Made by a program: the position numbers and the translations under genes. Positions 2,902 to 49,167 of a stretch of DNA of 62,887 nucleotides are shown piece by piece. Position 1 is the stretch's first letter; each line of letters starts with the position of its first letter. Source of the stretch: a virus (lineage: Duplodnaviria > Caudoviricetes); the IMG/VR virus record IMGVR_UViG_3300032006_002789, positions 1 through 62,887 of that record; one strand, given 5' to 3'. The notes beneath the pieces are model-generated. The model ran no database searches and was not told the origin of the DNA. It saw only the letters and a list, made by a program, of their open reading frames with translations.

Positions 2902-5900
2902 AATTCAGGTATAGCTCTAACCCAGTTTATTTGATTATCCTTTACGAGTGCGACGTATAGTGCTGCATAATCAGTGTCCCACCACAAGTGCCCTTCTTCT
3001 GCATCTGCAGGAGGAATACTTTGAACTTTCACTTTTCCGCCAGCGTCACCAACCTCCCACCTCGGAGTGGCCGCCTCGGCATTATAAACAATTCCTTTCC
3101 CATGAGCAAGCGGCATGCCCTGATCCGTGTCGACGTCACTTAAATCATTAATATTTAAAGTTCCAATATGTGACCTTTGAAGTTTTCCTGCAGTATCAAG
3201 GTTACTACCAAGGAAGGTTCCGCCTGATTGGATGGTTAAGGTATTTGGATTAACCGTTAGGACTCCGTTAGGATTGTCAGTTCCATGACCCGATGAAACA
3301 TAAGTTATCATAGAGCTACCATTTCTACCGATAGTAACATTTCCATTTCCATCCAAGTACCAGCCAACCTCCCCAGCGCCACTCATATTATTAGTGCCGT
3401 GTTGATTATGCAGTGTTGCGCTAGTGCTATCTGCATCGTCACCGTCAGCATTCACAATTAATTCGGCATCATCTTCCATAGTCAGCGTATTCTTAACGAA
3501 AGACTCGTCAACCATCTCTAGGCCAGTACTTACGCTATTAAAGCTGGCGCCCATTCCCTCCCACCGAGTAGTGTCAGCAGTAGGATCGGCGTTGCCGCCG
3601 TCATTCGCAGGGATCGCAGCCTTATTCATATAATAAGCGCCATTGTACTTTACAACATCCCTTCTGGTAATCTGATCATTGTTAGCAAAGTAGAAATACT
3701 CCAATTTACTACCCCAATCACCTCTAAATACAATAGCAGGTCCAGCGATATTACTTTGTTTTGATTTACTAAATTGTTGTCTAACGACTTGATTTATACT
3801 TGTATTCTGTAGGGTTTTTCCTGTAATTGTAAAATCGATATAAGGGGAGTCTTCACCAGATACAGCATTAGACGCATCCAGAACCGTTCCGACGTTATTT
3901 GCATAGTTTATAGCTCCTACATTGATATTTACGCCATTCGATGCACTCACCTCCCATTGTCCAGCGGCCGTGGGAGTAGCATCGTAGATTAATTTATCTG
4001 CGCCTTGATAAACTGTAATCGTCGTCCCACTTCCATCGTAAAATGTAACCGCCCCATCCTTATCGGCTGTTAGCTGGTGGGCGGAATTACTCAATACTAC
4101 AGTTATTGGAGATACAGCTCCTCGGCTCTTACTAAAAGTTTGAGTAGTTGAAGTGGCAAACTCATCTCCGTTTGCCTTCCTGCCTGTAATTTGATACGTG
4201 ATAGTCGCTGCTTCTTGATCATTATTTAGACCACTAGCTACCCCATATGTTGCAGTATTTCCGTTTTGCCCCGAAGGGTTTGCATTAGGAGTAATATGAT
4301 CACCAGGGCTTGAGGCAGTTACAGTCCACTTTGATTTATCTGAAGCTGCTACGCTGCTCACATAAGTAAGTGCGGTAGCGCCCTCATATACTTGTATAGC
4401 TGTCCCAGAACCAGTGTAGTCGCTAACTTGACCAAACTCATTGGCAGTCAGTGTGTGATTCTCGTTGCTATTAACAACAGAGATTGCGTCTAGTCCCTCG
4501 TCTAAGACCTGGACAGTCGTAGAATCAGAAGGCCATTGCTCGAGATTCTTTCCTGCTTCAAAGTGAGGGTCTTTGACTACAGCCCTAATTTTAAAACCAT
4601 TAGCGAGTACAGCACGATTATCTTCGCTGTTTATATTGGTAATAGTTAATGTCCCAACGCCATTATTATTATCTACAGCGATAGTGCAACTGCTAAGGAC
4701 TTTAGTGCGGTCAGCAGCGCTAAAATCAGTCCCATCCTTTTTTATCAAGTGCCAGCTTATGTTCGATTTATGAAGATGAGCGGAGTTAGTGTCGGTAACA
4801 GTCTCAGGATTATGGCCGTCTATACGAGAGGGTAAAATATCATGGGGAGCCAGGGGTATATTAGGAGTGTGTGCGGTAAACGTAATAGAGGTAGGAGTCA
4901 AGTCGGCGTCCTTCAACCTCTTAATAACATAACTAGAGGACTCAAGCCTTAGAGTTTTAGCGCTTGTACCTTCCTTTAGTTTTTGAATAACAACTTCATC
5001 AGAAAGAGTCCTTCCGTCTGGCGCGACAGTCCAAGCCTTAATTTTAATTCCAGCCTTATCTTGACCTTTCCACGATTGATCGAGCGGTCGACTAGAATCA
5101 AGAAATAACCTTTCTAAACCTCTCTTGCCACTGCTCCTGAATATAATTTGATTATTCTCTAATCTACTGTCATGATTTTTAGCTTCTATTATAGGATTAT
5201 TATTAATATCCTGATCAGATCCCTCCAGTAGCGGCTGGTCATCCCAGGAATAAAGATCCCAAATTACCTTATTTCGCTGAGGTAAATCATTGAGATATCC
5301 TGGGCCGCCACTTAAATCTGGAAGCTGATCTATATCACCCTCAAAACCTACACAATTAGCGGTTATTATTATTTCCCCTGGTGTTATTGTAAGATCCTCT
5401 TGTTGCCCAACAACTAGAGAGGTGGCCTCAAGACTTAAACTATAAGGAACTACCCCGCTATTTGCACGACTAAATGTTTGAGTCTTTACAAGAGAACCTG
5501 TGTCCCCTTTTATATTTCTATAGTTTATTGTATAACTAATTAAAGAGGTTCTGTGATGCCTACTTTTACTCATTGAGGTCGGAATACCAGAAGCCCATTT
5601 CTTATTTGCCTCGACAGGAGTGTAAGTATTAGCAGGAACAACATTTGTGCCCTCAACTTTATCTATGTAAAAAGTACCAACTGGAATATCACTGTGAGTA
5701 ATATCTTTCGAGCGATAAACAACATCAACTCCACCCCAATATGTTCCATTTGTAAGAATAGGGTCGTTACCTGTCCCTGATTTATTTTCTGCATCCGCTA
5801 TAAAAGTAGCCAACATGGATCTAACGGTTACGCCTTGATTTCCCCACCAATCGCTGTCCTTTTCGCGATTAAAAATAGCCCAGTAAATAATACTAGAAGT

Positions 5901-8900
5901 TTCTTGAGTAACTATTTCATCAAGATTAGTGCCCTTAGGGCTGTGCTCAAAGGCTATAGATGTAGAGCTATCATTTAAGGTTAATGGCGTTAATTGTACG
6001 CTACCCTCCCACATAAATACATCGGTTTGAGCGCCACTTAAAGAGGAGTCTTCGACAACATAAGTTTGCACTTGTTCATTAACCGTAAACACAAGATTAT
6101 TAGTTCCGCTTGAAGAGGCGGTTTTATTCATCTTAAATCCGCCGTTTACTATTTGAGTAACCTTACTTCCGCTTTGGATACCTGGCCCACTAACATCTTG
6201 ACCAACAGCAAAGCCCGTTCCGCTAGTATCAACCTGTCGGTTACCGTTAGTTGTCGTACAAGATGCGGTAGCTTCTGTTTGAGCCTCCATCTCCCAAACT
6301 AGTTGAGCCTCAAAACTTGCAGCCTCGTTATCTAGTAAACATGTTAAATTATCAGTGCCCTCCTCCAGCAGGATTATGGAAAGTTCGTCTTGAAAATCTC
6401 CATAAGGGTTTTTAGAGCTAGAATTAGCTACGGCATCATATTGAGCAACTGAAACATCATCTGGCCTCTCAGATATAATTTTTATTGTGGCCTGCTCAAG
6501 GGTTTTTATTTGGCTTGGTTTTACATAAGCATCAACTATTTGATTTTCTTTGGTAATTTCTACCGTTAGACCGTCGCCGCTCATTAAAGTATTAAGAGCC
6601 TGATCAGAATAGAGTTCAAGTCCAGCAGGAGGCTCCCATGTAACGGAGGCTAGATGCTTACCACTTTCGGCCCCCAAGGAATATCCAGATTGCTCAGACG
6701 GCAAAAGATTAGTTACCCTAGCAAAAACCCTAATAGGATCGGTATCTTCATATGTTGCGGTTGTTCCGTCGGCACTCCAGGTCGGAACGCCCCCGTTAGG
6801 AATAATTGAATTATCTCTTTTTAATATTACCGTTTGAGTAGATGCACCCAAGACGATTCCACGCTCGGAGTCGCCGCCCTCGGCAATATAAATCGTTTCC
6901 TGAGCAAAAATAGTTCTTTTTGTGTTGGGGTCAGTGAATTGAAATTCTACACTTACGCTATTTGGCGAGCCATCACTAGAATTAGCTACTTGAACACTTT
7001 CAACTGGAACTCCATTCAAATTTGCTACTGAGCTAGCGCCGTGAGTTCTAAGGTGGAATATTCTTTGCCATTGGTCGGCATCGCCATCAGTCCAAGAAGT
7101 CTCGGCACCTTCATCATAATAAGTATAACCCACTTGCCAGGGCGCGTCGATTTTAGGATCGCTAGCTAAAGTTTGAGGAGCTTGGGGAGTCCCTCGATTA
7201 ATTTTATATTTAAGACTTCTAGTTGTAGAATATTCATTACCCTTACTATCTGCAGCTGTAATTTTGGCGGTATGAATATGAAGAGATGGCCTGTTACTTA
7301 TCGAGCCTTGCCCAGACTGATTATCGTCGCTGCTAGTTTTTCCGTTGGCCCCTGTTTCTAATTGAACAAATAAATTAACATTATCATCTCCCTCTAAAGC
7401 CTCAGCCCAGACATAGGCGGTGGCGTAGTCCGTTATTGAGGTTTCTCCATCTCTACTAAATTGAGCGGTTAACGTGCGCTTATTTGTTTCGTCTAGGGCT
7501 CCCTTACCCTTACCTCTTATGATACTTAAAGGTTTGTCAACCTCGAGAAAACCAGCTGCACCACCATCAAGTACGTCCGACAGGGTTATGGAGTCCAAAG
7601 CCTCAAGATCGCCGCTTGAGTTTATTGGAGTTCTAGCATAATTATCTGCGGACAATAGTATGGGTAATTTTGTGATAGGATCAACATAATCTTGTCCTTG
7701 ATTTGTTACATCAATAGGTTCACTGGCAGCGACAACGAGCAATTGATCTTCAATCGCGTCTCTACCAATTCTAACGTTATATTTATTATTATTTTGCCAT
7801 ACCTTATCAGTATCCGAAGTTTGTTCGTGAACTTCTTCAACTCCAGCCGCGCGGCCATCATCAGCGTTAGCAGATGGCCCGTACCTACCAGGAAATACAT
7901 CAGTCCTAATAGCCTTAAGTCGAGATATTACGTTATCCCTCGCGTCGTTATCACTAGGAAAATCATCACTTAATTTTTTATAGTTCTTTAATATACTGGG
8001 CTCATCATTCCTGTCTGTATAGGTTGGAAGGTCACCAAGGAACGTTAAAGTTTTCGCGCCACTAGCATTCGCGTTCTTTGTGAGGGTGAATTCTGTAGAG
8101 CTTCCAATGGATTTAACCCTAGTTCCAGATTGAATACCTGAGCCGCTAACCCGCTGCCCGACAGTTATACTATTAGTGGATTCTCCAGCAGATAGACTAA
8201 CGGTTGAATTTCCACTGGTCAAGCTGCAACTTATTTCATCATCGCCATCTGTAAACATTAAATCTCTAAGAGAGATGTAATAAAATTGAAGATCCCCAGA
8301 AAGGGTTCCATTAGTATCAGCGGCAAATCTATAAAACAAAGAGACTTGGTCGGCAAAAACTAGATCCTCTTCATAGTTCCTCAACGACCACCCGCCACCA
8401 TGATATTGTTGATTGGTTATATCTGCGTCATAGTACAAATCCATAGGCAGGTTATTTTCATACTGCCAAACAGTTTGAAGTTCCAGTTTTTGGTCTTTAT
8501 TTTTATTCTTGATCGCAGTCCCATCTAGGGGATTTATAAAGAATACGCTTTGACCGAACGATTCTGCATCCTTATATATCGCTGCAGTAGAGTCCCCAAT
8601 ATCAAGAGCCTGGATAGTGAGTGTTGCGTTAGATCTGTATTGAAGTGCTGTAGTATAAAGTTGGGCAGAGCATTGAGTTCCATCATTTATCCCAAAATTC
8701 CTATGAAATAATTGTCTCCAATAAACCGAATTAGTGACAGGTTTTCCCAGAGATGCAGTGGGATTTATATAAATAAATACCCCATTTGCGCCGTAAGTAG
8801 TTGGAGCAATGACAGTATCCCCTTGTTGATATTCTTGGGTTACTACATAATCTCCTTTTGGGGTACGAGGAGCTTTTCCTGCACCGCTATAAGGCTCAAC

Positions 8901-11900
8901 AATTTCTTTATTTTCTATCGCATAAAAATCCGCAAGAATACCTTCTTGATACTCAGATCCCGTACCTTCAAAGTCTAAATCTTTATTTGAAGTTCCGCCG
9001 TCTAATTTAAGAAAGTGTTTTGATGATATTCCGTTAAAGTTTGTGTTGCCGCTACCAATATACCCAGCAGCAGTAGGATCATAATCCTCTTCTTTATCAA
9101 ATACCATTAACCCAAATGTACCACTATTAGAATCACTGTCTTCAAGATAAAGGGCAACCTTTATTCTGGCACGATTAACCCCAGAGCTATCTTCTTCAAA
9201 TGCCAAACGATAAACCTCTCGCTTTCTGTCTCCGCCTTGAGATCCCTCTGGATCAGAAATATCAAACTGCCACTTTATTCCATGGTGAACAACTTCTCCA
9301 GCGGGGTTTTGAAAACTTGCATTAGCGTCGATGACTTTAGGGGTCCTTGTGGATAATTGATTCCATTCATCATAAGTAACTATGTTAGATGAAACAACAA
9401 GAGCAACCAAGCCAAACGTTGCCCCGCTTGTTTGTCGAATATTACCCTCAATTACTAGCTCGCCATCCTCGAACTTAAGCACCCCATTTTTAGCCTGAAA
9501 AGAAAAGCTTCCGTCCCCTCTTATATAAAACCCTGGTTGAGATTCGCCAGCCTCAGGATTATCAATTCTCGTCCAGTGGGCCTCGCCCGCTCCGCCTGGA
9601 GCATGACTGGGCTGCATTGCAATCTGCTGCACCGTTATATCTAGCGTAGCATTTTCGGGAGCAGTGCCCGTAAATGTAATAGTAACACTCCCTTGAAGTT
9701 CTGGAGGCGCGCTAGTTCCATTAATTTGCGCAGTCCAACCAAAAGAAGCAGAAGGATTCAACGTGGCGTTACCAGCGTTAAGAACTTTTTCAACAATGAT
9801 ATTCTCAGAAGGGACAACAAGACTTCCCTCATCAAGGGCAAATTTATTTCTACCTTCAAATTGAATAAGATCGTCGCTTTCTGGCCTTAGGAAAATGATA
9901 TCATCTGGCTTTTCTCCGTCAACGACTTGAATTCTCTTCTTAACGGTTGCACCAATATCTTTTACCGCCTTAAAATAACCTCGAGTAGGGTTAGAGAAGG
10001 TGACGACTTGATCCTTTTTGTACTCTATAGCCCTGTCACCCGCCTTATTTACTTGAGAAAATGGAAAATCATCCCACCCTACAGTTCCGTCTATACTGCT
10101 ACCAATCGTTCCCCACGCTCCAGCCCCAGCGACATAATCGTTTAAAGACTCTATCGGTTGTTCAAAATTTATACGCTCAGAAGTAGAAGCTCTAGTCCCC
10201 CCATAAACCCTAATATCCTCAGCGCCTATAGTGCCAGCGCGCACCTTATCTGCAATTAAATCTTTAATTTTTGCGGAGGTTATGGCTGCGTCAGCAATTG
10301 AAGCCGAACCAATTACAGCATTAGCAAACGCGTGAAAGGCCTGTTTAATGCCTACGCCCCTGACAAATTGAGCGACAACAAAATCGCCCTCCTGCATTAA
10401 GGAGTTATCACTTGGCTGGTCTAATTTTATTCTTTGATAGTCATAAACAATTCGATCATGAGCCTCATCATTAGCGTCTGCGTCATGTTTAGTGCTTGAT
10501 ACAATAGCAAGATTAGAAGGGTTTGCATGAGAGAATCTATAAATTGCCTTTTTCTCTACAGTTTTTAATGGGTTAGTTATATCGTTAGTGTCTGTTGCAA
10601 TACCATCGGGAGCGTGAAAGGTTTTTGGGGATACGGTAACTACAAGATCATCTAAATTGGCATCAGTAGAAGAATTATTTACAGGAGGAATACTAACCCC
10701 TTCCCCGCCAGAAATAGTTACAACGTTATTATCAGCAGAAGCAGAGATACTGGCATCAAGATTTGCGGTAGCATTTATTATTGTTGCAAGTTTCGCAGCT
10801 GCGTCATTATCGTCCGAGGGCTCGGAGACTGCAGTGGTATCTGTTCCTGCTATTGATAGTTTAACAACATCATCACTTGCAACGTCTTGAATTGTAACTG
10901 TAAGTGATTCGCGAGTATTTTCCCCTTCATCTTTCTTAGTGCCATGTGAAGTAGCTTCGTCAGAATTAAGCTCTTTAGTGTCTCTGGGAGTCCAATAAAT
11001 AAAAAATTTATCCGTAGCTTGAAATTCATCCTTAAGTTTTTCCTTAAGGTCCGTTCTAGTATAGTCAGCGGGGTCAAAGTTGTTATCGTCAAGAACTATG
11101 GGGTGAGTGTCGTTTATATAATTTTGAAGATTGTGTTCAATTGAGAGATTTGAAGAGTGGGGAGCAGTATTAGGAACCCCTCCATCATCAGTAGGATCTA
11201 TATTTATTCCACTTGCCTCAATCAGATACCCAACTCCCTTATTATATAAGTAATGAGTTCCCCAACTAATCCTCCCATCTACAGAGTCAACAACAAATGG
11301 GTTATTAGGAATTAAAGCTATAGTATTTTCGAATTGTTCCGTGATGCCCTGTTCAAAATCCTCTAAATCTGTAACCTTAGCTTGACCCAAGGCCATCCTA
11401 AATCCGTTCGAAGGGTCAGGAAAAAATAAACTTTTATTTCTAGCTTTATCTACGGTCCTGACCCAAAAATATTTTACTTCATTAGTTTTTCCTTTTAACC
11501 TAAGGCTATTCTGGTTGGCGGGGACAGTGATTGCAATTCTGCCATTTGCGGCAGGATTCTTATTTTTTAAAAGATTTTCTGCGGGATCTGTTGGGAGTTG
11601 AGTGAGATAAGAATAACCTTCTCCGTCCTTTTGGCTTTCAGTTTCCACAACACTAAAACCATCATGCTTAGAGTAGAGACTTTTATAAGCTTGTCCGTAA
11701 ACCCTAAGGGTTTCATCTTTCCATGTGGGAGTATCCCCATGATTGTCCCAGAAATTATTTTGAGCAGTAATTATTATATCTTCAGAATCTGGTTGATGTT
11801 CGCTGTAGTGGGGCTCCAGGCACTGATAAATCTTAGGTTCGGATTGACCATTCTTCTTTCCAGAAATCCAATCCCCAGGATTATATAACGTCTCAGGCTC

Positions 11901-14711
11901 CCAAGAATTAATTTCATTGATCCTTCTAAAACTGTCCGCTCCTTGTTGGGTATCAACAAGAGAGGGATCGTCAGACATCCATATTTCATAATGACTAACA
12001 TCAGGAGACGAGCTAGCATTCCAGCTCAAAAAATAAGTTTCAAATGAAGTGGTAGAATCATCACGAAATCCCGTTATAGGTAATGGAGGGCCAGTATCAA
12101 CTGATCCTGGGTACTTTTGACTGCCATCATAATAAGCATAAGGGTATACATATGCTTTCTCTTGAATATGATGGAGGTATCCACTGCCGTAACTATCATA
12201 AGGAAGAACCTTATAATAATAAGGGGTAATTTCTTCTTCGCCGTCTACGGCATTTAAAGTGAAAGGAGGGTCGTCTTCTATTGAGGTTATATTATTTCCA
12301 AAAGACTGCTTACCTTCACCAAAGAACGTTTGAACGAAGTATTTCTTAGAGGAATCTACATACAAAGAGCCAGAAGTAAAAGACTCTACGCCTTCATTAA
12401 CAGTAAATGAATACGGGCCTCCTTGCCCTCCAATTCCTGCAACAAAATAATCTTTAGAGGATCCCAAATTTTGATCCTCTATGGTAACGGTGCCCCCAAC
12501 TTCTATTTGGTTAAGTATCGAAGACGCCTCATTTTGGCTGTCTTTAGCAAACCTAACAATAAACTTATCAATTAACCTTTCGGTCCCCTCGCCATTATAA
12601 ACGGGATCGATATAAATACCTTCGTGCTTCCCGTCGGACTCAAGGAGCAAGGTCTTATTTGAAATTTTTATTTCAACTAAAGAGTCATTAACGTCATACC
12701 AACTAGAAGACCTTAGATATTTTGTATAATAAAGAATGCTATTAGTGGCGTCATTCTTATAAATCACCCAGTTTTCGTTATATTTCGGATCGGCACCCTG
12801 ATAGAGAACAATTTCGTGACTAGGGCCTGAGTCGACCTTTTGAATATAACCCTTACTGGAAAATTTACCTTCTATCTTAGCAACGTCTTCGTATTTATAA
12901 GCTCCTTCTATACTTGAATCAGAATCACAAGATACGACGATTTCATTATAAGCATCGATATCAAAATTCCGATCATCCAGGCTACTGGCCTTATTTCTAA
13001 ATAGGTCAACTTTAGTAGTTTTTTCTCGACTACCCCCAGCATAAACAAAATCAAAATCAATATGGCCGACAGACCTCAAACTGTCAACATTTAAAAAGTT
13101 TATCTTTGGCGCAGGATTTCTTCCGTAAATAGTAGTTTCATGAATAACTTCCTTTTCAGAATCGACTAGAGAAAGATGAAGGTCAATATCCCTTTTCCCG
13201 CTTTCGCGAATAGACGAGTCTCCGTATATTGCATTATTAAACTCTCTTGAATACCTATAGCTTGTTTGTAAAGTATAATTAGTTTTATCATTTTTGTTGT
13301 CTTCGCTGGCGCCAATATAACCCATGATGGTTTCTCCATCGCTAGAATCTATAAGTGCGCCAGAAAAACCAAGGATGCCATTATAGGAGGCGAGTGCCAT
13401 CTGATCTTGGCCCAGCTCAAGGTCGTCACTATTCCTTGAGTATTCTTCTATATCAACAACGTCCCCAAAATTATCAATTAGTTTCCATTCGAAAATCAAA
13501 TCATCACTCGACTCTCTAAATAAATCGTAACCAATTTTCAAGCTGTACTTAATTGGTATAAGATTACCGTCCATACTGAGGCCATCCGCAGTAATATTTT
13601 GAAGCGGCCCCTCTCCCAGACCATCAACCGCAGCAACAGCATAAAAATAATTCTTATTAAATGTTTGACTTAACTTAGGTTTTTCGTCCTCTGACTCCAA
13701 TTGCTCTCTTGAATAAAAATATTTTTCCTTAGTTATAGCTAGTCCATCTTCCGCTTGGGCCGCCTTATAGTCTTTTCTATTTTCAAGAGTTGGAACTTCA
13801 TCTCCATCAGAAGAAAATCTATACAAATTCATCCCAATCCAGTCAGCGTCATTAGAAAGGCCATTGCACTCGAATACTCCCTTTTCTAAATTCCAAATAA
13901 AGAAATCCATTATAGGAGCTCTATTCTGCCCAGCCAAAACGCCAGTAAAAGGAACATTAAATGAATCAAAGCCCACTACCTTTGCGGAAAACCTTCGGCT
14001 ATCTACATCTTCATCAAGGAAAAGTTTTTTATATATCTCAGAACTAATTTCAAATTCAAAATCTTTATAATTTCTTAACGCGGCGCCCACATCGTCAGCC
14101 AGCAACCTATTCTGAAGCTCAGGAATGTTATTAAGTTGAGCGGTTGTTATAGGAGATGCGGTGCCTTGCATGACCTGATCCAAAGTCTGACTCCCGTCAT
14201 AAAAAGTAATTTCAAAATTCTTAAAGAATGGATCAGTAAGAATTTCTTCTTTAACTAATTTACCTTCAAGAGGATGCCCCACAGGAGGAACGAGCCCCCA
14301 AACAATTTTAGCATTATTATTTACAAACTCACCATCGACAGCATATAAATTTTCCTCCTGAGAAGGACTCTGAACAACTAAACTATTTTGAGCGGCTCCT
14401 TCAGGCACCCCGTCAAACCTTAATTCACCAAACGTAAATGTTCCATGGAATTTTGGCGCAGGAATGCTAATCTTTTTTTCTAAAAACTCAGACCTAATAC
14501 CAAGATTACTTTTCGCATAAACCCTAACGGTAAACTCTCCGTAATTGCCCTCAAGGTCTATATTAACCGAGGCGGTATCCCCGTCTTGCTCAACTAACTT
14601 TACCCCAGGAATAGTTCTTTTAAAAGAGTAATTATCAGAAGTGCCAACGATATCGTAGTCCGAGAATGCGTCTTGGACTGTAAAGCTAACTGCTAGTGCT
14701 GTATCTGCCAT
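2898..14711 (-). CDS. Giant tail tip/central fibre protein (3937 aa), continuation of the gpJ-like module
   Basis: FN3-like segments (FTVRVYAKSNLGIRSE; LSWNASSSPDVSHYEIW; YFWVRTVDKARNKS), gpJ-C-like IGSASIADAAITSAKIKDLIADKVRAGTI, CBM5/12-like W-x-Y-x-x-GD-x-V motifs, repeated Ig-like domains (SNENHTL...GSGT.I.VYEG), fibre-like C-terminus. Confidence 0.85.
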   Translation of the reverse strand: MADTALAVSFTVQDAFSDYDIVGTSDNYSFKRTIPGVKLVEQDGDTASVNIDLEGNYGEFTVRVYAKSNLGIRSEFLEKKISIPAPKFHGTFTFGELRFDGVPEGAAQNSLVVQSPSQEENLYAVDGEFVNNNAKIVWGLVPPVGHPLEGKLVKEEILTDPFFKNFEITFYDGSQTLDQVMQGTASPITTAQLNNIPELQNRLLADDVGAALRNYKDFEFEISSEIYKKLFLDEDVDSRRFSAKVVGFDSFNVPFTGVLAGQNRAPIMDFFIWNLEKGVFECNGLSNDADWIGMNLYRFSSDGDEVPTLENRKDYKAAQAEDGLAITKEKYFYSREQLESEDEKPKLSQTFNKNYFYAVAAVDGLGEGPLQNITADGLSMDGNLIPIKYSLKIGYDLFRESSDDLIFEWKLIDNFGDVVDIEEYSRNSDDLELGQDQMALASYNGILGFSGALIDSSDGETIMGYIGASEDNKNDKTNYTLQTSYRYSREFNNAIYGDSSIRESGKRDIDLHLSLVDSEKEVIHETTIYGRNPAPKINFLNVDSLRSVGHIDFDFVYAGGSREKTTKVDLFRNKASSLDDRNFDIDAYNEIVVSCDSDSSIEGAYKYEDVAKIEGKFSSKGYIQKVDSGPSHEIVLYQGADPKYNENWVIYKNDATNSILYYTKYLRSSSWYDVNDSLVEIKISNKTLLLESDGKHEGIYIDPVYNGEGTERLIDKFIVRFAKDSQNEASSILNQIEVGGTVTIEDQNLGSSKDYFVAGIGGQGGPYSFTVNEGVESFTSGSLYVDSSKKYFVQTFFGEGKQSFGNNITSIEDDPPFTLNAVDGEEEITPYYYKVLPYDSYGSGYLHHIQEKAYVYPYAYYDGSQKYPGSVDTGPPLPITGFRDDSTTSFETYFLSWNASSSPDVSHYEIWMSDDPSLVDTQQGADSFRRINEINSWEPETLYNPGDWISGKKNGQSEPKIYQCLEPHYSEHQPDSEDIIITAQNNFWDNHGDTPTWKDETLRVYGQAYKSLYSKHDGFSVVETESQKDGEGYSYLTQLPTDPAENLLKNKNPAANGRIAITVPANQNSLRLKGKTNEVKYFWVRTVDKARNKSLFFPDPSNGFRMALGQAKVTDLEDFEQGITEQFENTIALIPNNPFVVDSVDGRISWGTHYLYNKGVGYLIEASGINIDPTDDGGVPNTAPHSSNLSIEHNLQNYINDTHPIVLDDNNFDPADYTRTDLKEKLKDEFQATDKFFIYWTPRDTKELNSDEATSHGTKKDEGENTRESLTVTIQDVASDDVVKLSIAGTDTTAVSEPSDDNDAAAKLATIINATANLDASISASADNNVVTISGGEGVSIPPVNNSSTDANLDDLVVTVSPKTFHAPDGIATDTNDITNPLKTVEKKAIYRFSHANPSNLAIVSSTKHDADANDEAHDRIVYDYQRIKLDQPSDNSLMQEGDFVVAQFVRGVGIKQAFHAFANAVIGSASIADAAITSAKIKDLIADKVRAGTIGAEDIRVYGGTRASTSERINFEQPIESLNDYVAGAGAWGTIGSSIDGTVGWDDFPFSQVNKAGDRAIEYKKDQVVTFSNPTRGYFKAVKDIGATVKKRIQVVDGEKPDDIIFLRPESDDLIQFEGRNKFALDEGSLVVPSENIIVEKVLNAGNATLNPSASFGWTAQINGTSAPPELQGSVTITFTGTAPENATLDITVQQIAMQPSHAPGGAGEAHWTRIDNPEAGESQPGFYIRGDGSFSFQAKNGVLKFEDGELVIEGNIRQTSGATFGLVALVVSSNIVTYDEWNQLSTRTPKVIDANASFQNPAGEVVHHGIKWQFDISDPEGSQGGDRKREVYRLAFEEDSSGVNRARIKVALYLEDSDSNSGTFGLMVFDKEEDYDPTAAGYIGSGNTNFNGISSKHFLKLDGGTSNKDLDFEGTGSEYQEGILADFYAIENKEIVEPYSGAGKAPRTPKGDYVVTQEYQQGDTVIAPTTYGANGVFIYINPTASLGKPVTNSVYWRQLFHRNFGINDGTQCSAQLYTTALQYRSNATLTIQALDIGDSTAAIYKDAESFGQSVFFINPLDGTAIKNKNKDQKLELQTVWQYENNLPMDLYYDADITNQQYHGGGWSLRNYEEDLVFADQVSLFYRFAADTNGTLSGDLQFYYISLRDLMFTDGDDEISCSLTSGNSTVSLSAGESTNSITVGQRVSGSGIQSGTRVKSIGSSTEFTLTKNANASGAKTLTFLGDLPTYTDRNDEPSILKNYKKLSDDFPSDNDARDNVISRLKAIRTDVFPGRYGPSANADDGRAAGVEEVHEQTSDTDKVWQNNNKYNVRIGRDAIEDQLLVVAASEPIDVTNQGQDYVDPITKLPILLSADNYARTPINSSGDLEALDSITLSDVLDGGAAGFLEVDKPLSIIRGKGKGALDETNKRTLTAQFSRDGETSITDYATAYVWAEALEGDDNVNLFVQLETGANGKTSSDDNQSGQGSISNRPSLHIHTAKITAADSKGNEYSTTRSLKYKINRGTPQAPQTLASDPKIDAPWQVGYTYYDEGAETSWTDGDADQWQRIFHLRTHGASSVANLNGVPVESVQVANSSDGSPNSVSVEFQFTDPNTKRTIFAQETIYIAEGGDSERGIVLGASTQTVILKRDNSIIPNGGVPTWSADGTTATYEDTDPIRVFARVTNLLPSEQSGYSLGAESGKHLASVTWEPPAGLELYSDQALNTLMSGDGLTVEITKENQIVDAYVKPSQIKTLEQATIKIISERPDDVSVAQYDAVANSSSKNPYGDFQDELSIILLEEGTDNLTCLLDNEAASFEAQLVWEMEAQTEATASCTTTNGNRQVDTSGTGFAVGQDVSGPGIQSGSKVTQIVNGGFKMNKTASSSGTNNLVFTVNEQVQTYVVEDSSLSGAQTDVFMWEGSVQLTPLTLNDSSTSIAFEHSPKGTNLDEIVTQETSSIIYWAIFNREKDSDWWGNQGVTVRSMLATFIADAENKSGTGNDPILTNGTYWGGVDVVYRSKDITHSDIPVGTFYIDKVEGTNVVPANTYTPVEANKKWASGIPTSMSKSRHHRTSLISYTINYRNIKGDTGSLVKTQTFSRANSGVVPYSLSLEATSLVVGQQEDLTITPGEIIITANCVGFEGDIDQLPDLSGGPGYLNDLPQRNKVIWDLYSWDDQPLLEGSDQDINNNPIIEAKNHDSRLENNQIIFRSSGKRGLERLFLDSSRPLDQSWKGQDKAGIKIKAWTVAPDGRTLSDEVVIQKLKEGTSAKTLRLESSSYVIKRLKDADLTPTSITFTAHTPNIPLAPHDILPSRIDGHNPETVTDTNSAHLHKSNISWHLIKKDGTDFSAADRTKVLSSCTIAVDNNNGVGTLTITNINSEDNRAVLANGFKIRAVVKDPHFEAGKNLEQWPSDSTTVQVLDEGLDAISVVNSNENHTLTANEFGQVSDYTGSGTAIQVYEGATALTYVSSVAASDKSKWTVTASSPGDHITPNANPSGQNGNTATYGVASGLNNDQEAATITYQITGRKANGDEFATSTTQTFSKSRGAVSPITVVLSNSAHQLTADKDGAVTFYDGSGTTITVYQGADKLIYDATPTAAGQWEVSASNGVNINVGAINYANNVGTVLDASNAVSGEDSPYIDFTITGKTLQNTSINQVVRQQFSKSKQSNIAGPAIVFRGDWGSKLEYFYFANNDQITRRDVVKYNGAYYMNKAAIPANDGGNADPTADTTRWEGMGASFNSVSTGLEMVDESFVKNTLTMEDDAELIVNADGDDADSTSATLHNQHGTNNMSGAGEVGWYLDGNGNVTIGRNGSSMITYVSSGHGTDNPNGVLTVNPNTLTIQSGGTFLGSNLDTAGKLQRSHIGTLNINDLSDVDTDQGMPLAHGKGIVYNAEAATPRWEVGDAGGKVKVQSIPPADAEEGHLWWDTDYAALYVALVKDNQINWVRAIPEF

Positions 14712-14713
14712 TG

Positions 14714-17700
14714 TTATTCGGGTCTAAAAGTTATATCAAATAATTCTAAATCTTCTGGAGCGTCAGGAACCGACATGTCTGCTTGAGGAGGAATGTAAGC
14801 TCTTGGTTTCTGTATATTAATGTTTTTTTCAATTGCTGCAAATTTATAGGGATTATATTCGCTACCAATAACCTCAAAAGATCCATCTCCATTATCCTTA
14901 GTTCCTTTAATCCTAAACTTCTGGGAGTACATTTGAGTTGGGGAAATTTTTGCCCCAGAAATCTTATATACTCCTCCAGAAGCTTCGTTTCCTGTAAATG
15001 CACTTACTGCCTCGGTAATAGTTTTTCCAATTAATAAGTAAAAATCATAACCACCATCTTCGTTGACTCCTATTTTCTTGACCCTGCAAAATCCTCTGTA
15101 ATCATCTGCATATGCGCCGCTCCCCATCATATTTGAATGGTCGCTATAAATTTGAACCTCATCTTCTTCGCTTAGGTTATGTCCGTGGAGTATTCCCATC
15201 ATAGGCATAGGCTTATCGTCGTAATTAATATATTCAGAAACCCCTATATAATTAATAGTCCCGTCTGATGATGCATTAGGGAATGTTGATATTACAGGCT
15301 CGCCAGAATTGTCAGAAATAGGAGAGGTAAGATCGTCTGGAGCGGTTCCAGTGTTAGCTATATCCAACCAATAACCCTGACCAGGGACAACTTTTAGAAT
15401 TTTAAATCCGCCAATCGATTGCCCTGCTCTATATAAAGCCCCATCATCATAAACCTTTATGAAGCCAGGAAATTCATTATCATTAAGGTTTGCAGAGTCA
15501 AAGCTAATATTACCCTCGTGATCTTCAAGTTTAAAAGATACAGGAACAGAACTATCAACTCCACACCATTGCTTGCTAAACAATGGTCCAAAGCGTAAAC
15601 GAGCGCCAACTTTACTCAAAGTTGAAGACCTAAAGGGGTTAAAAAGCCCCTCCGACTCCCTCTGTTTCCCATATTCATTAAACGCTTCCTGTAAATTTTT
15701 GAGAGTTTCAAAACTACTTTCGGTGCAAGACAGGTTAATCTCATCATCCGTAACGGTTTGTGGCATTCCGTCAGAGTCGGTATAGTTGTAGCTAAGCTTT
15801 ATTTTAATCTCGTCACCCTCATTACAGCCCCTTATTGAAAACCTCTGAGATTGAGCTTCTAGTAAGTCAGAGTCATAAACAAAAATAATTCCATCCTTTA
15901 ATCTTTCTTGGTTATTTATATACCTCATGGCAAACCATTTTTTAGTTAATTCTGGCAATTTATCTCCATCTACATAGTGCATGTAATTCTGAAGATCTTG
16001 AGTATCAGACGGGTACCTCGTCCAAATCCATCCCAGGGTATCGTGGCTATAATAAAATCCGTCTGTGCCAGAGGGAACTGGCTCTGCATGAGAAGATACG
16101 TAAACCCATCCCATTCCCTTGGTAAACACCCAACCATTAGAGTCGGTGCTTGCATAAAAGTGTCCGAACTTATCAGAGTAATGCCAATCTGGAGCATCTT
16201 CATTTTCACTCGAGATATAAGTCTGAAAAGTTATAGATATATTTGAGGCGCTCTTTGTTGCTGCTTTGCTAAGACGAACTTTATTTTCTGCGGTAATCTC
16301 CTCAACAACAGAATGATTAGGAATTCCTTCTCCGATAGCAATTAATCCTGTTGAAATTTCATTGTAATCATCGACTGTAATTAAATTTGATCCGCCAGTT
16401 ACGCTTCCAGTTTGAGTAATTTCCTGTTTATCGCCCTTAGCAGCCATAATAATATTTAGATCAGCTGCAGTTATAGCATAACCTTCATTTCCCTGCAGGG
16501 GCTCAATCAGATTATTATTTGATACCGACCAAGCTGCTCCAAGATTTATATTTCTAAGAGCGGCAGTTGTTGTAGAATGATTTGTATTAATGAAATAATG
16601 CAGACCGCCTTCGTTGCCAATTTGATCCTCCCCAGGAGAAGAAGGAACAACTTTTGTATTATGAGAAATAGCCACCTCAAAAGAGTGCCCAGACTCAGAA
16701 ACAGAATGCACAATATAAGCAAACCCCTTTAAAAGCGGCTTAGGAAGGACACCCTCGCTATCAAAATAGATATAATCCCCCTTTATAAGCCCATGATTAT
16801 AAGAGCTAAATCTCTTTCCTTCTAAATCCACAGTAAAGTTTTTCTTCAGCATCAAATCAGCAATAGTTGAAGGGGTAGTAATTTTACCTATAAATCTATC
16901 AAATTGCGTTGTAGATTGATGATCAATAATAACGTCTTGATCAATAGAGTCTTCTCCAGCAGACAAAGATTTACTTTCAATAGATTCGTAAGTTTCATTA
17001 CCCTGATGATTATTGATTATTATTTCATAGCCATAGTAACTAACAGTTGGCTTATTGATATTTTTATCTATAACGATAGACCGATTATCTGGAGAGACTT
17101 CTCGAAGGCGGCCTGATGTAAATTTTTCTTGCCTATTAACATCAGAGATTTCAATAACATCTCCAGCTTTTAAGTACATCCCCTCCAGAAAAGTAGTAAA
17201 GATGACGGATTCCGTTTCAAACTGAGAGACGTAAAGATAAAATCTAGCCATGCGCTTTGCTTGAGATGGGGAAGTTATACCCACCCCCACAAGACTGGCC
17301 TCATTATACCCAAATCTATCTATTGCCGTAGAGTCTTCTTCGTAAGCAAGATCCGTCGCAAAGTCATTATACTTATTATTAAATCTAACAGTAACTGCAG
17401 TTTTTCTTTTAGACCTATCAACTCCCGTATACTTAAAACCCTCAGCACTGACGTTGGAATTATTAAAAAGAAGCAAAGGCTCTCTAGGATGCTCTTGAAT
17501 AACTCCAACCCTCCCATCTATATAAGCAATCATGCCTTGAAATATTGCACTTAAGTTTTTAAATAAATCTAACGCTTGATATAATTGATTAATATAAATA
17601 TTACAAGTGAATCGGGGCTCTACTATTGGAAAGTTAAACTCACAAACACAGCGTCCTTTTACATTAAAATCTGTTTCCCTTTTCTGTCGTTGCCTAAGCT

Positions 17701-19765
17701 TAGGAGCAAATACTTTTACCCATTTTTGATTAGCATTTGAAGAATGAATAGTTCGCCTATGAAACGTTTCCCTTCCATCTTCATCTTCCACAGCAAATAC
17801 CAAAGCTTTTCCCTTAAAAGAGAATCCGTTTCCGTATTCGTCCTTAAAGTCCTTCTGGGATATTGAATATATACTATCATCGCCAATAGTTATTTTAAGA
17901 AGCCTACCCGATTCAGATTTATCTAGGGCGCGAAATGCCCTCCAAGGCTTTTCCGAAGAGTGGCCAGTCTCAACCAGTTCGTCGCAATATTTTGCAGCTT
18001 TATATAGAGACCATTTATCTATTAAATCTTCAGAGATGCCAACTCCATATTTAGCTAAACCGTACCTTGCATTTGTGGCGAGATCATAAAAAATCCACGC
18101 TGGATTATTGGTCCAGTATTTTTGATTATCTGGAATTCCAGCTATAGAATCCAGCTCATCCCTCTGTCCTTTAAACAATCCATTCCAGTTGCCAGTATAT
18201 TCCCTGGAGGTGGGGTCATAGTTGCTCGGAATGGGAATTTTCAACAATTTACAATGAAACTCTCGCTTCGGGGTTGAACTCAAGTTTTTTGCGTCAAAGC
18301 GAATATTTGCCAATGCCACATTAGGGTAAGTTAGAGTGTATTTTTTCTCTTCAAATACATGACTCAACTTAGAGGAAAACAGATTTCTTGCATCGTTCCC
18401 CTTTACTTCATTAGTCAATCTCACAAGCTCGATCCACCTTGGGCCACCCCCCTCTTCTGGAGGTAAGCTCACCTTAACTTCAACCTTATAGACTGACGTG
18501 GCAATACCTTCAATTGAGACAAGCATAGTAGCAGGGTCGTTGACTTTCTTTTGTCTTTCAGGGGCTGCCGCGCCGACCTTACTACTGATTTCATAATTTC
18601 TATATTTTATCGACCATCCTGGATCATCTAAGGTCATATATTTTAATCCGTTATAGATTCTAACGCCGAAGACAAGCTTATTGGTCTGAATAGGGTGATC
18701 TGGATTTTTTGACATATACGAACATTGTACGTTTAAATTCATGGTCGCAGTGACGGAAAAAGAGTCCTCGATATAATGAGTTATAACATTAGCTTCATGG
18801 CGTTTGGCGTTATCGAGAGACCCGAGAATACTATTGCTATAAGGGTTAGGTCCGATTAATTGCTCAGAATAAGGAAACATTTTTCTACTGACTGTATTTG
18901 CGAGAGGGAGGCGCTCAAAGGTATTACCTTTACTAACCCTAATTGGGGTGCCCCCTTCATTGGTAACGTAATTATAAGTTCCAGAAGCTTCTGCAGAGCC
19001 ATCCTCTGCATTGGGCATGTTTTTTACAGGCATCCTATTTAAGTAAACGCCTTGTTCAATATCATAGGTTGTTTCGCCATTTCTATTAACGATACCCTCT
19101 ATGGGTCCCTCTGAGAGCATATCAAAAATTTCTATCTGATCAAAAGATTCTAGCATACCTGAGTTTGCAGCTTGAGCAGTATCAAAACTTCTTAGGCCAG
19201 ATTGAATTACGGTAGAACCTATTAATAACCTACCGTAACCTATGGGCACTGGAACGCCTTGTCGGGTAACATTTTCAGTTCCGTTGAACACATATGATTT
19301 TGTTGCAACAGGGTCACCCATTTGAGGCATGTCAATAAGGGATTCAACAATTGACTGAATAAGCATTGTAGCTCCAACCATTACAGTCATACCAATGGCA
19401 GCAGCAGCAATCTTAGCTCCTAGAGTCATTGCTCCTTTAAACCCGAAGAATTTCATAATTGCCGTTCCAATGGGAATAAATACCGCCCCACCAGCAACAG
19501 CGGGACAAATATGAATTTCATCCTGAGAGACAGGTTGGTGAAAATTCTCTTCGGAAATAAAATCATCAGGCCCTTCGATTTTAGTAACTTTTTTTGTGGT
19601 GATAATGTACGAGGCGCCTTTTCGTTCCTGCTGAATAAGGTACCTCAAGAATCCATCCGCGTTTGCGTCGATAGCTTTTGCAGCTTCGCCCACGGTTCTA
19701 GCGTTCAGGGTCCATTCACGCCCGAACTTCTTACCTAAGTTGCCATATAAAAATACTTTTTTCAC
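14714..19765 (-). CDS. Tail assembly protein I (ubiquitin-like) fused to tail tip/host-specificity protein J
   Basis: N-terminal lambda gpI-like KVFLYGNLGKKFGR...EIHICPAVAGG and QGVPVPIGYGRLLIGS; gpJ-like DMLSEGPIEG, YPNVAL, IPSNYDP...Y.G.W.G.FK, WTNNPAWIFYDL, EPRFTCN, GITSPSQAKR. Confidence 0.92.
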   Translation of the reverse strand: MKKVFLYGNLGKKFGREWTLNARTVGEAAKAIDANADGFLRYLIQQERKGASYIITTKKVTKIEGPDDFISEENFHQPVSQDEIHICPAVAGGAVFIPIGTAIMKFFGFKGAMTLGAKIAAAAIGMTVMVGATMLIQSIVESLIDMPQMGDPVATKSYVFNGTENVTRQGVPVPIGYGRLLIGSTVIQSGLRSFDTAQAANSGMLESFDQIEIFDMLSEGPIEGIVNRNGETTYDIEQGVYLNRMPVKNMPNAEDGSAEASGTYNYVTNEGGTPIRVSKGNTFERLPLANTVSRKMFPYSEQLIGPNPYSNSILGSLDNAKRHEANVITHYIEDSFSVTATMNLNVQCSYMSKNPDHPIQTNKLVFGVRIYNGLKYMTLDDPGWSIKYRNYEISSKVGAAAPERQKKVNDPATMLVSIEGIATSVYKVEVKVSLPPEEGGGPRWIELVRLTNEVKGNDARNLFSSKLSHVFEEKKYTLTYPNVALANIRFDAKNLSSTPKREFHCKLLKIPIPSNYDPTSREYTGNWNGLFKGQRDELDSIAGIPDNQKYWTNNPAWIFYDLATNARYGLAKYGVGISEDLIDKWSLYKAAKYCDELVETGHSSEKPWRAFRALDKSESGRLLKITIGDDSIYSISQKDFKDEYGNGFSFKGKALVFAVEDEDGRETFHRRTIHSSNANQKWVKVFAPKLRQRQKRETDFNVKGRCVCEFNFPIVEPRFTCNIYINQLYQALDLFKNLSAIFQGMIAYIDGRVGVIQEHPREPLLLFNNSNVSAEGFKYTGVDRSKRKTAVTVRFNNKYNDFATDLAYEEDSTAIDRFGYNEASLVGVGITSPSQAKRMARFYLYVSQFETESVIFTTFLEGMYLKAGDVIEISDVNRQEKFTSGRLREVSPDNRSIVIDKNINKPTVSYYGYEIIINNHQGNETYESIESKSLSAGEDSIDQDVIIDHQSTTQFDRFIGKITTPSTIADLMLKKNFTVDLEGKRFSSYNHGLIKGDYIYFDSEGVLPKPLLKGFAYIVHSVSESGHSFEVAISHNTKVVPSSPGEDQIGNEGGLHYFINTNHSTTTAALRNINLGAAWSVSNNNLIEPLQGNEGYAITAADLNIIMAAKGDKQEITQTGSVTGGSNLITVDDYNEISTGLIAIGEGIPNHSVVEEITAENKVRLSKAATKSASNISITFQTYISSENEDAPDWHYSDKFGHFYASTDSNGWVFTKGMGWVYVSSHAEPVPSGTDGFYYSHDTLGWIWTRYPSDTQDLQNYMHYVDGDKLPELTKKWFAMRYINNQERLKDGIIFVYDSDLLEAQSQRFSIRGCNEGDEIKIKLSYNYTDSDGMPQTVTDDEINLSCTESSFETLKNLQEAFNEYGKQRESEGLFNPFRSSTLSKVGARLRFGPLFSKQWCGVDSSVPVSFKLEDHEGNISFDSANLNDNEFPGFIKVYDDGALYRAGQSIGGFKILKVVPGQGYWLDIANTGTAPDDLTSPISDNSGEPVISTFPNASSDGTINYIGVSEYINYDDKPMPMMGILHGHNLSEEDEVQIYSDHSNMMGSGAYADDYRGFCRVKKIGVNEDGGYDFYLLIGKTITEAVSAFTGNEASGGVYKISGAKISPTQMYSQKFRIKGTKDNGDGSFEVIGSEYNPYKFAAIEKNINIQKPRAYIPPQADMSVPDAPEDLELFDITFRPE

Positions 19766-49036: not shown

Positions 49037-49167
49037 TAGAAATATTAGCAGCGCCAGACAAAAGTTACATGGAATTTTTTCCAGGAGATTGGATTGTATT
49101 TGGATTATTAATATCGATTGTATGGGCAATTAAACATGGTTGCGGTTATACTGATGACAATCAATGA
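49033..49167 (+). CDS. Small membrane protein (44 aa), not in the ORF track
   Basis: MIEILAAPDKSYMEFFPGDWIVFGLLISIVWAIKHGCGYTDDNQ; ATGA overlaps at both ends, AGGAG upstream. Confidence 0.7.
   Translation: MIEILAAPDKSYMEFFPGDWIVFGLLISIVWAIKHGCGYTDDNQ

What the first reader, a model, noticed from the sequence alone, without database searches (positions are those of the whole stretch)
14500..14800. Fibronectin-III domain split across two genes at the gpJ / giant-fibre junction
Seen: the gpI-J protein ends ...VPDAPEDLELFDITFRPE-stop, which resembles the first strand of an FN3 domain (P..P.NL). The 3937-aa gene starts 2 nt later with LAVSFTV...YDIV...FTVRVYAKSNLGIRSE, resembling the remaining FN3 strands. 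In lambda-type gpJ this FN3 domain is contiguous. Inference: the two chains join by beta-strand complementation, a natural split-domain connector that makes the huge fibre an exchangeable module.
Basis: partly seen in the sequence, partly recalled or inferred. Interest (0 to 1): 0.7.

Follow-up and report, generated by a model that had tools for sequence, protein, structure and literature searches.

The report
Fibronectin-like domain split between two tail genes
In this marine phage and about 70 relatives, the gene boundary between the tail-tip hub protein and a giant tail fibre cuts through one small fibronectin-type domain, so the hub probably holds the fibre by lending it the missing first beta-strand.

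Summary
On the minus strand a 1683-aa gpI-gpJ hub protein ends ...VPDAPEDLELFDITFRPE-TAA. Two bases later the 3937-aa fibre gene starts.

It is not an assembly error. Contigs from four other sequencing runs cover the junction without a difference. All 68 informative related viral contigs (of 69) have the same stop and restart at the same place, in all three relative frames. No fused form was found.

AlphaFold2 folds fibre residues 1-85 confidently as six strands. These superpose on solved FN3 domains only from their residue 13-20 onward, so strand A is missing.

The hub tail carries a conserved P-x-x-P-x-x-L-x-L-x-D motif. In Xanthomonas phage Kintu and in lambda, the matching J domain is one continuous chain, and the two window pieces tile it end to end.

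A two-chain model places the tail antiparallel to the fibre's first strand (ipSAE 0.71, best control 0.46).

So a split FN3 joined by donor-strand complementation is well supported by computation, but it is not shown experimentally.

The "exchangeable module" idea is not supported. In the four closest of seven pairs of relatives, similarity runs unbroken across the junction and breaks only near the far end of the fibre.

I rate it a new variant of known kinds.

The parts
14714..19765 (-). P0001, 1683 aa. It is a fusion of tail assembly protein gpI (residues 1-196) and a gpJ-type tail-tip hub that lacks its own central fibre and receptor-binding domain.
   Evidence: PHROG 32, PHROG 31, Pfam Phage-tail_3, PDB 8iyk_J/8iyk_I and 25vf_A. 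No Ig_GpJ_C or Phage_Tail_Tip hit.
14777..14827 (-). HDIV-to-FN3 linker of P0001 (residues 1647-1663, KNINIQKPRAYIPPQAD), with conserved P-IPPQAD.
   Evidence: Alignment A3: invariant P41, P46, P47, Q48. hhalign to Kintu J, probability 96%, E 2e-9. Lambda/T5 linker described in PMC10721106 (passages read).
14717..14776 (-). Donor tail of P0001 (residues 1664-1683, MSVPDAPEDLELFDITFRPE). The predicted strand A of the FN3 domain is EDLELFDI, residues 1671-1678, at 14732..14755.
   Evidence: invariant P54 and P57; L60, L62 and D64 in 90% or more of sequences; residues 51-68 (A3 numbering) form the interface, antiparallel to fibre residues 5-11.
14712..14716 (-). Stop codon TAA (14716..14714) plus a 2-nt spacer before the fibre ATG.
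   Evidence: In relatives the spacing is -11 to +11 nt and all three frame offsets occur.
14457..14711 (-). Fibre residues 1-85: an FN3-like beta-sandwich with strands B, C, C', E, F and G only.
   Evidence: AF2 pLDDT 93-97 over residues 11-80, six strands. VIA-align matches to FN3 domains, Z 7.3-9.6, starting at their residue 13-20. hhalign to Kintu J FN3, E 2.9e-5.
13812..14456 (-). Fibre residues 86-300: the rest of the conserved N-terminal region shared with relatives. Mixed alpha/beta, fold not identified.
2898..14711 (-). P0002, the 3937-aa tail fibre gene.
   Evidence: No Pfam or PHROG family.

Best explanation
An ancestral lambda-type gpJ gene was cut by a stop and restart inside its first fibronectin-type domain (FNIII-1), in the turn between strands A and B. 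The hub protein (gpI-gpJ fusion) keeps the HDIV-FNIII linker and strand A as a roughly 20-residue C-terminal tail. The 3937-aa fibre begins with strands B-G.

During tail-tip assembly each of the three hub tails inserts as the missing edge strand. It runs antiparallel to the fibre's first strand, with Leu1673 and Leu1675 filling the hydrophobic core. This completes the sandwich and anchors one fibre chain per hub chain. The tight gene spacing suggests coupled translation.

Shown here: the gene anatomy, its conservation, the lack of fused forms, and homology of both pieces to a contiguous J domain. Predicted: the six-strand fold and the strand insertion. Inferred: that this joint is the main physical attachment, and that the fission serves to make and fold hub and giant fibre separately, as in T5 pb3/pb4.
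For: Anatomy.

Not an artefact: contigs of runs X3, X4, X6 and X8 (three studies) span 14705-14731 with 0 differences and 0 gaps.

Conservation: 54 of 54 loci and 58 of 58 informative loci have tail, stop and restart. These give 40 distinct tail/fibre pairs. Frame offsets are 9, 31 and 14 across the three classes.

Fibre N-terminus: 60 of 71 non-self representative hits begin with Met, at most 6 residues, then the strand-B motif. None of the 71 has the domain behind a hub.

Fold: six strands at pLDDT 93-97 in two models. FN3 chains align only from their residue 13-20 onward, for example 4m6a_J 13..92 at Z 8.5, rmsd 2.2, 75 aligned, and 2h45_A 18..95 at Z 8.5.

Homology: A3 against Kintu J, probability 96.3%, E 2e-9, tail residues 1-69 to piece 5-70. 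A1 residues 44-76 to piece 106-139, probability 73.6%, E 2.9e-5. The two pieces therefore tile one contiguous domain. The Kintu and HHU4 J coding sequences run on for 1.6 and 4 kb past the match.

Complex: ipSAE 0.71, 0.71 and 0.79 against a best control of 0.46. That mark was reached by 58 of 80 solved complexes and 2 of 110 mismatched pairs. Runs agree in at least 92% of contacts and partner pLDDT is at least 63. The register is i+j=70. L60 and L62 touch fibre residues 62, 64, 77, 79 and 81.

Weak covariation: tail63-fibre7 and tail61-fibre9 rank 2nd and 4th of 81 position pairs.
Against: No experiment or solved structure exists for this joint.

Neither piece reaches any Pfam FN3 or Ig_J model, and the A1 profile finds no PDB sequence.

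Foldseek E-values are weak (best 0.013). VIA Z scores of 7-9.6 lie in a range the tool calls common for beta-sandwiches.

The complex model may simply rebuild a familiar FN3 from two pieces. That shows likeness, not binding, and one control scored 0.46.

A1 against lambda J alone is very weak (E 0.022, probability 2%).

The covariation is not corrected for phylogeny, and other position pairs score as high.

I could not inspect coordinates, so I cannot exclude that fibre residues beyond 88, or a neighbouring fibre chain in the trimer, occupy the strand-A site.
Confidence: 0.7

Rival explanations
1. The gene boundary is just a domain-linker boundary. The hub tail would be a flexible remnant with no structural role, and the fibre would dock on the hub through loop contacts or other surfaces, as T5 pb4 docks on pb3.
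For: In T5 the pb3-pb4 contact is made by loops of complete FNIII domains (PMC10038345, passages read). Binding here is only predicted.
Against: The tail is the best-conserved part of the hub: 42-53% identity over the last 65-70 aa against 30-36% elsewhere. It has invariant prolines and an alternating L-x-L-x-D pattern. The fibre domain lacks one strand. The two pieces tile a contiguous homologous domain.
Confidence: 0.12
2. The strand-A position of the fibre's first domain is filled within the fibre trimer, by later residues of the same chain or by a neighbouring fibre chain. The hub tail would bind elsewhere or nowhere.
For: Only a 1:1 pair of fragments was modelled. Coordinates of the 300-residue model could not be inspected. 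Strand swapping of the N-terminal strand is known for an engineered FN3 scaffold (title of PDB 4m6a).
Against: The fibre starts only 4 residues before strand B in the window, and with at most 6 residues before the strand-B motif in 60 of 71 relatives, so it has no N-terminal strand of its own to swap. The tail carries the strand-A-like motif, and the homologous contiguous domain uses exactly that segment as strand A.
Confidence: 0.1
3. The two ORFs are normally read as one protein, by programmed frameshift or stop-codon readthrough.
For: The gap is tiny (2 nt). In 9 of 54 loci the stop is in frame with the fibre ATG.
Against: Relative frames fall in all three classes (9, 31, 14), and spacing ranges from an 11-nt overlap to an 11-nt gap. 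A stop is present in all 58 informative loci. There is no slippery heptamer at the window junction. The fibre frame is closed 12 nt upstream of its ATG.
Confidence: 0.03
4. Assembly or sequencing error, or a pseudogene, created a false split.
For: The window is a metagenome-derived provirus record, and coverage in the laid runs is low (depth 2-5).
Against: Four other runs from three studies reproduce the junction exactly. All 68 informative contigs of 69 have the split, at 28-60% protein identity.
Confidence: 0.01

Closest known systems
Lambda gpJ (tip attachment protein J) and J proteins of cultured phages such as Xanthomonas phage Kintu
   Same: Same hub (Phage-tail_3, PHROG 31; PDB 8iyk_J E 8e-36). 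Same order of HDIV, linker, then FNIII-1. The hub tail and the fibre N-terminus are each homologous to the Kintu J domain.
   Different: In lambda (Pfam Ig_J 610-714), Kintu and HHU4 the domain and the whole central fibre are one chain. Here the chain is cut after strand A. gpI is fused to the hub's N-terminus, and the fibre is 3937 aa.
Phage T5 baseplate hub pb3 plus central fibre pb4
   Same: Hub and central fibre are separate adjacent gene products, and FNIII strings bridge them (PMC10038345, passages read).
   Different: T5 is cut between complete FNIII domains, two on pb3 and three on pb4. The contact is by loops and the pb4 N-terminus. Here the cut lies inside a domain and the predicted contact is a shared beta-sheet. 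The T5 interface figure (S8A) is in a supplement I could not see.
Donor-strand complementation in chaperone-usher pili (recalled from general knowledge, no call)
   Same: An Ig-like sandwich encoded one strand short is completed by a strand from the neighbouring subunit, giving a very stable non-covalent joint.
   Different: In pili the missing strand is the C-terminal G strand, the donor is an N-terminal extension, and a chaperone fills in first. Here strand A is missing, the donor is a C-terminal tail, and no chaperone is known.
N-terminal strand swapping in an engineered consensus FN3 scaffold (PDB 4m6a, title seen)
   Same: It shows that strand A of an FN3 can be supplied by another chain. 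It is among the best structural matches to the fibre domain (Z 8.5).
   Different: That case is an engineered homodimer swap, not a natural two-gene split.

Membership tests
Fibronectin type III / Ig_J domain (Pfam PF00041, PF24421) | Sequence match to the Pfam model at its gathering score | tested here: not met
   No fn3 or Ig_J hit for P0001 or P0002, for 37 fibre N-termini or for 31 hub tails. Even contiguous Kintu J reaches only 21.8 bits against a cut-off of 25.
Fibronectin type III / Ig_J domain (Pfam PF00041, PF24421) | Beta-sandwich fold superposable on solved FN3 domains | tested here: met
   Strands B-G only. VIA Z 7.3-9.6, rmsd 2.0-3.0, 72-84 residues aligned, mostly to FN3 chains and from their residue 13-20 onward. 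Foldseek E-values are weak.
Fibronectin type III / Ig_J domain (Pfam PF00041, PF24421) | Seven strands (A, B, C, C', E, F, G) in one chain | tested here: not met
   Six strands in the fibre. The strand-A-like motif sits on the other protein.
Fibronectin type III / Ig_J domain (Pfam PF00041, PF24421) | Homology to FNIII-1 of J-type proteins | tested here: met
   hhalign of A3 against Kintu J, probability 96.3%, E 2e-9. A1 against Kintu J, probability 73.6%, E 2.9e-5. Against lambda J only weak for A1, and E 9.8e-6 for the hub end.
Lambda-type tip attachment protein J | Hub domains (Phage-tail_3 / PHROG 31) | tested here: met
Lambda-type tip attachment protein J | Central fibre and C-terminal receptor-binding domain in the same chain | tested here: not met
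   P0001 stops after strand A. It has no Phage_Tail_Tip or Ig_GpJ_C hit, whereas lambda J has both.
T5-type two-gene hub plus central fibre (pb3/pb4) | Hub and fibre as separate adjacent genes | tested here: met
T5-type two-gene hub plus central fibre (pb3/pb4) | Chains meet between complete FNIII domains through loops | tested here: not met
   The boundary falls in the A/B turn of one domain. This rests on prediction and homology only.
Donor-strand complementation systems | An incomplete Ig-like fold completed by a strand of another subunit | tested here: inconclusive
   Predicted with controls (0.71 against 0.46). There is no structure.
Donor-strand complementation systems | Periplasmic chaperone that donates the strand first | not testable with these tools
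   No candidate was examined.

The most novel reading that the evidence does not exclude
The split FN3 is the only joint holding a fibre of about 4000 aa, and it works as a force-sensitive latch. A pull on the fibre at receptor binding would shear or peel the donated strand A. That would tug directly on the HDIV-FNIII linker, the element that in T5 frees the plug and opens the tube. The gene fission would then have created a trigger, or a fibre-release element, rather than merely a convenient gene boundary. As a by-product, the 20-residue tail and the 85-residue domain would be a natural peptide-tag and catcher pair.
Probability: 0.12. Interest if true: 0.75.

Novelty: new variant of a known kind. 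Interest (0 to 1): 0.6.

Why it matters
It would be a natural, evolutionarily stable case of a single small domain encoded by two genes and reassembled by donor-strand insertion, at the load-bearing joint of a phage tail tip. It links three known things: contiguous lambda gpJ, the two-gene T5 hub and fibre, and pilus donor-strand complementation. It is directly testable with a peptide and an 85-residue domain.

It also shows how a whole clade of uncultured marine siphophages attaches fibres of 2000-4000 aa. And it gives annotators a rule: a J-like ORF ending P-x-x-P-x-x-L-x-L-x-D-L-T is complete, not truncated.

Tried and rejected
- **Cultured phage matches to the junction or fibre.** DNA similarity of the junction to 50,697 phage records found nothing. 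tblastn of fibre residues 1-400 against the same records also found nothing. The fibre N-terminus therefore has no cultured relative in that collection.
- **First locus searches.** A single-protein scan of viral contigs with the hub C-terminus gave no relative. The first alignment was too diverse for the locus finder (an error), so I used a closer subset (A2).
- **Host.** A scan of GTDB species genomes with A2 gave no confirmed relative, so no host was identified.
- **Word-based protein searches with the hub tail.** The "longer" search found none (which the tool itself calls weak evidence). The "near" search found only the query itself.
- **Sequence-level FN3 membership.** Pfam and PDB sequence searches with the two pieces gave no FN3 or Ig_J hit.
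- **Exchange at the junction.** This was rejected on 7 pairwise identity profiles.
- **Covariation.** The analysis is only suggestive, because phylogeny is not controlled and several off-register pairs score as high.
- **Literature.** Three full-text searches found no report of a split FN3 or a donor strand at a phage hub-fibre joint. Subscription journals and supplements were not searched.


Full report
**What is there.** The window is a 62,887-bp IMG/VR record classed as a provirus and estimated 48% complete. Sequencing runs that hold the junction come from seawater and marine plankton metagenomes.

Positions 2.9-38 kb on the minus strand form a lambda-like tail module. It holds a 2790-aa tape measure protein, gpM-, gpL- and gpK-like minor tail proteins, then P0001 (14714..19765, 1683 aa), then P0002 (2898..14711, 3937 aa).

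P0001 is a fusion of gpI and gpJ. Residues 2-196 match tail assembly protein I (PHROG 32, E 6e-30; PDB 8iyk_I). The rest matches central tail fibre J (PHROG 31, E 3.5e-107; Pfam Phage-tail_3; PDB F2-pyocin J 7e-46, lambda J 8e-36). P0002 matches no Pfam or PHROG family.

**The junction.** One search shows ...FRPE-TAA, then two bases, then ATG. The fibre frame carries a TAG 12 nt upstream of its ATG with no start codon between, so the fibre cannot begin earlier.

**Is it an artefact? No.**
- Logan contigs of four runs from three studies, none flagged as the possible source, cover 14705-14731. They show no substitution, insertion or deletion, though at low depth of 2-5.
- HMMER of fibre residues 1-400 against 1.84 billion representatives gave 71 hits besides itself.
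- Of these, 60 begin with Met, at most six residues, then the same first-strand motif.
- The other 11 are five N-terminally cut fragments, four with slightly different called or matched starts, and two unrelated FN3-repeat proteins matched elsewhere. None has the domain behind a hub.

**Do relatives keep the split? Yes, all of them.**
- Searching viral contigs with the fibre N-terminus gave 52 loci, plus 2 from a clade only about 30% identical.
- In 54 of 54, an upstream J-like ORF of at least 1300 aa in 50 loci (shorter in four, where it is cut by the contig end or interrupted) ends P-[IM]-P-P-Q-x-x-[MI]-x-x-P-x-x-P-x-x-[LIV]-x-[LI]-x-x-x-[TSNV], followed by 0-8 residues. One locus (L038) instead has 27 further residues, mostly a Ser/Gly-rich stretch.
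- The stop comes next, and the fibre ATG lies between an 11-nt overlap and an 11-nt gap away.
- Searching independently with the hub tail gave 59 loci, 15 of them on contigs not seen before. 58 of 58 informative ones show the same stop and restart; one ends at its contig end.
- That makes 68 informative contigs of 69, all split.
- The relative frame is 0, +1 or +2 in 9, 31 and 14 loci. This rules out a conserved frameshift or readthrough.
- A "longer proteins" search with the hub tail found no fused form, which is weak evidence.

**Is the divided thing an FN3 domain?**
- AlphaFold2 with a 37-sequence alignment folds fibre residues 1-85 at pLDDT 93-97 over residues 11-80. It gives six strands: 5-11, 18-24, 29-35, 46-52, 58-67 and 77-83. 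A second model of residues 1-300 gives the same six.
- Foldseek E-values are weak (best 0.013), but the list is dominated by FN3 domains.
- VIA-align gives Z 7.7-9.4 on Foldseek's candidates and Z 7.3-9.6 in the Foldseek-independent search of 48,161 chains. Most matches are again FN3. The tool warns that Z near 8 is common for sandwiches.
- The informative point is the register. Model residues 1-2 align to residue 13-20 of single-domain FN3 entries (4m6a_J 13..92, 5oc7_B 16..92, 2h45_A 18..95, 1j8k 15..94, 3teu_A 14..96). So the first strand of a standard FN3 has no counterpart in the fibre.
- By sequence, neither piece reaches a Pfam FN3 or Ig_J model.

**Homology to a contiguous domain.**
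- In lambda J, Pfam places Ig_J at 610-714, directly after the hub. [quoted passage not shown]
- The hub-tail alignment A3 matches lambda J 566-601 (E 9.8e-6).
- A3 also matches Xanthomonas phage Kintu J over 65 columns, tail included (probability 96.3%, E 2e-9). Tail residue 69 falls at residue 70 of the Kintu piece.
- The fibre alignment A1 matches the same Kintu piece at 106-139 through fibre residues 44-76 (probability 73.6%, E 2.9e-5).
- Counting back from there, fibre residue 1 falls at about piece residue 72-73. The two window proteins therefore tile one contiguous Kintu domain with neither gap nor overlap.
- The Kintu and Acinetobacter phage HHU4 J coding sequences continue 1.6 and 4 kb past this point. 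Kintu's segment 72-139 gives a sub-threshold fn3 hit (21.8 bits against a cut-off of 25).

**Do the pieces fit together?**
- The controlled two-chain prediction used fibre 1-90 with A1 and hub residues 1644-1683 with A3.
- It scored ipSAE 0.71, 0.71 and 0.79 against a best control of 0.46. That mark was reached by 58 of 80 solved complexes and 2 of 110 mismatched pairs. Runs agreed in at least 92% of contacts, and partner pLDDT was at least 63.
- The verdict is "supports, does not show".
- The interface is hub residues 1664-1681 against fibre residues 3-14 and 72-84. The pairs 9:61, 10:60, 8:62 and 7:63 define an antiparallel ladder.
- The nearly invariant Leu60 and Leu62 (Leu1673 and Leu1675) touch fibre core residues 62, 64, 77, 79 and 81. 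This is the position of strand A in an FN3.
- Because FN3 is a familiar fold, the pass may partly be memory of that fold. Here that is itself the point at issue: the two pieces together look like one FN3.
- Across 40 distinct tail/fibre pairs, the predicted neighbours tail63-fibre7 and tail61-fibre9 rank 2nd and 4th of 81 position pairs by mutual information. Tail Glu61 sits opposite fibre Lys9 in four of the five pairs with Glu61, and never opposite Glu9. This is uncorrected for phylogeny, so it is only a hint.

**Function.** The most likely reading is donor-strand complementation at the hub-fibre joint, with three such joints per tail tip. The flanks of the junction are the best-conserved parts of both proteins. 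The hub's last 65-70 aa are 42-53% identical against 30-36% elsewhere, and the fibre's first 130 aa are 26-59% identical with patchy similarity beyond.

In the four closest of seven pairwise DNA profiles, identity is continuous over the junction and collapses only 5.4-6.6 kb into the fibre gene. For example, L003 against L009 is 98% just before the junction and 93% just after, and drops to about 50% beyond that point. The three more distant pairs show no step at the junction either. What is swapped is the distal tip.

A plausible benefit, which I infer rather than show, is separate synthesis and folding of hub and giant fibre, as in T5 pb3/pb4. T5 is cut between complete FNIII domains and joined through loops (PMC10038345, passages read). 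Its interface figure is in a supplement I could not see.

**Novelty.** Three full-text searches found no description of a split FN3 or a donor strand at a phage hub-fibre joint. The components are known: contiguous gpJ, the two-gene T5 arrangement, and pilus donor-strand complementation (the last recalled, not from a call). I therefore rate this a new variant of a known kind, of moderate to good interest, resting on strong comparative evidence and on structure prediction only.

Noticed in passing
window 19178..19765 (-), P0001 residues 1-196: Tail assembly protein gpI is fused in frame to the N-terminus of the gpJ-like hub. In lambda, I and J are separate genes. Relatives' hub ORFs align from residue 1, so the fusion seems shared.
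   Followed up: partly
window about 14940..16520 (-), P0001 residues about 1081-1610: A stretch of about 530 residues lies between hub segments. It has little or no similarity to relatives' hubs or to solved J proteins, and its function is unknown.
   Followed up: no
L003 vs L009, L008, L048; L017 vs L021: Close relatives are 80-100% identical through the hub and the first 5.4-6.0 kb of the fibre gene. [quoted passage not shown]
   Followed up: partly
L038, about 6850..7000: One relative's hub tail carries 27 further residues, mostly a Ser/Gly-rich stretch, after the strand-A motif and before its stop. The fibre start 1 nt later is unchanged.
   Followed up: no
L018 and L019: In L018 the fibre ORF stops after 519 aa. 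In L019 the upstream hub ORF is open for only 102 aa. These may be broken genes or assembly errors in those contigs.
   Followed up: no
window 45908..48454 (+): A second tail-fibre-like gene of 848 aa lies on the other strand. Its C-terminal 100-500 residues match many tail-fibre and baseplate PHROGs.
   Followed up: no
window 28099..36471 (-): The tape measure protein has 2790 aa, which implies an unusually long tail.
   Followed up: no
window 13812..14456 (-), fibre residues 86-300: The conserved region after the split domain is confidently predicted as a mixed alpha/beta unit (pLDDT mostly 90 or more). It has invariant W138, P143, H146 and D160, and no fold match was obtained for it.
   Followed up: partly
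window 27155..27258 (-): ORFs 26212..27258 and 27155..28102 overlap by 104 nt, directly downstream of the tape measure gene. Neither has a PHROG match.
   Followed up: no
window 49164..50150 (+) and 59741..60535 (+): Dehydrogenase-like (PHROG 9582, E 6e-85) and kinase-like (PHROG 10255, E 1e-53) genes lie in the plus-strand half of the record.
   Followed up: no
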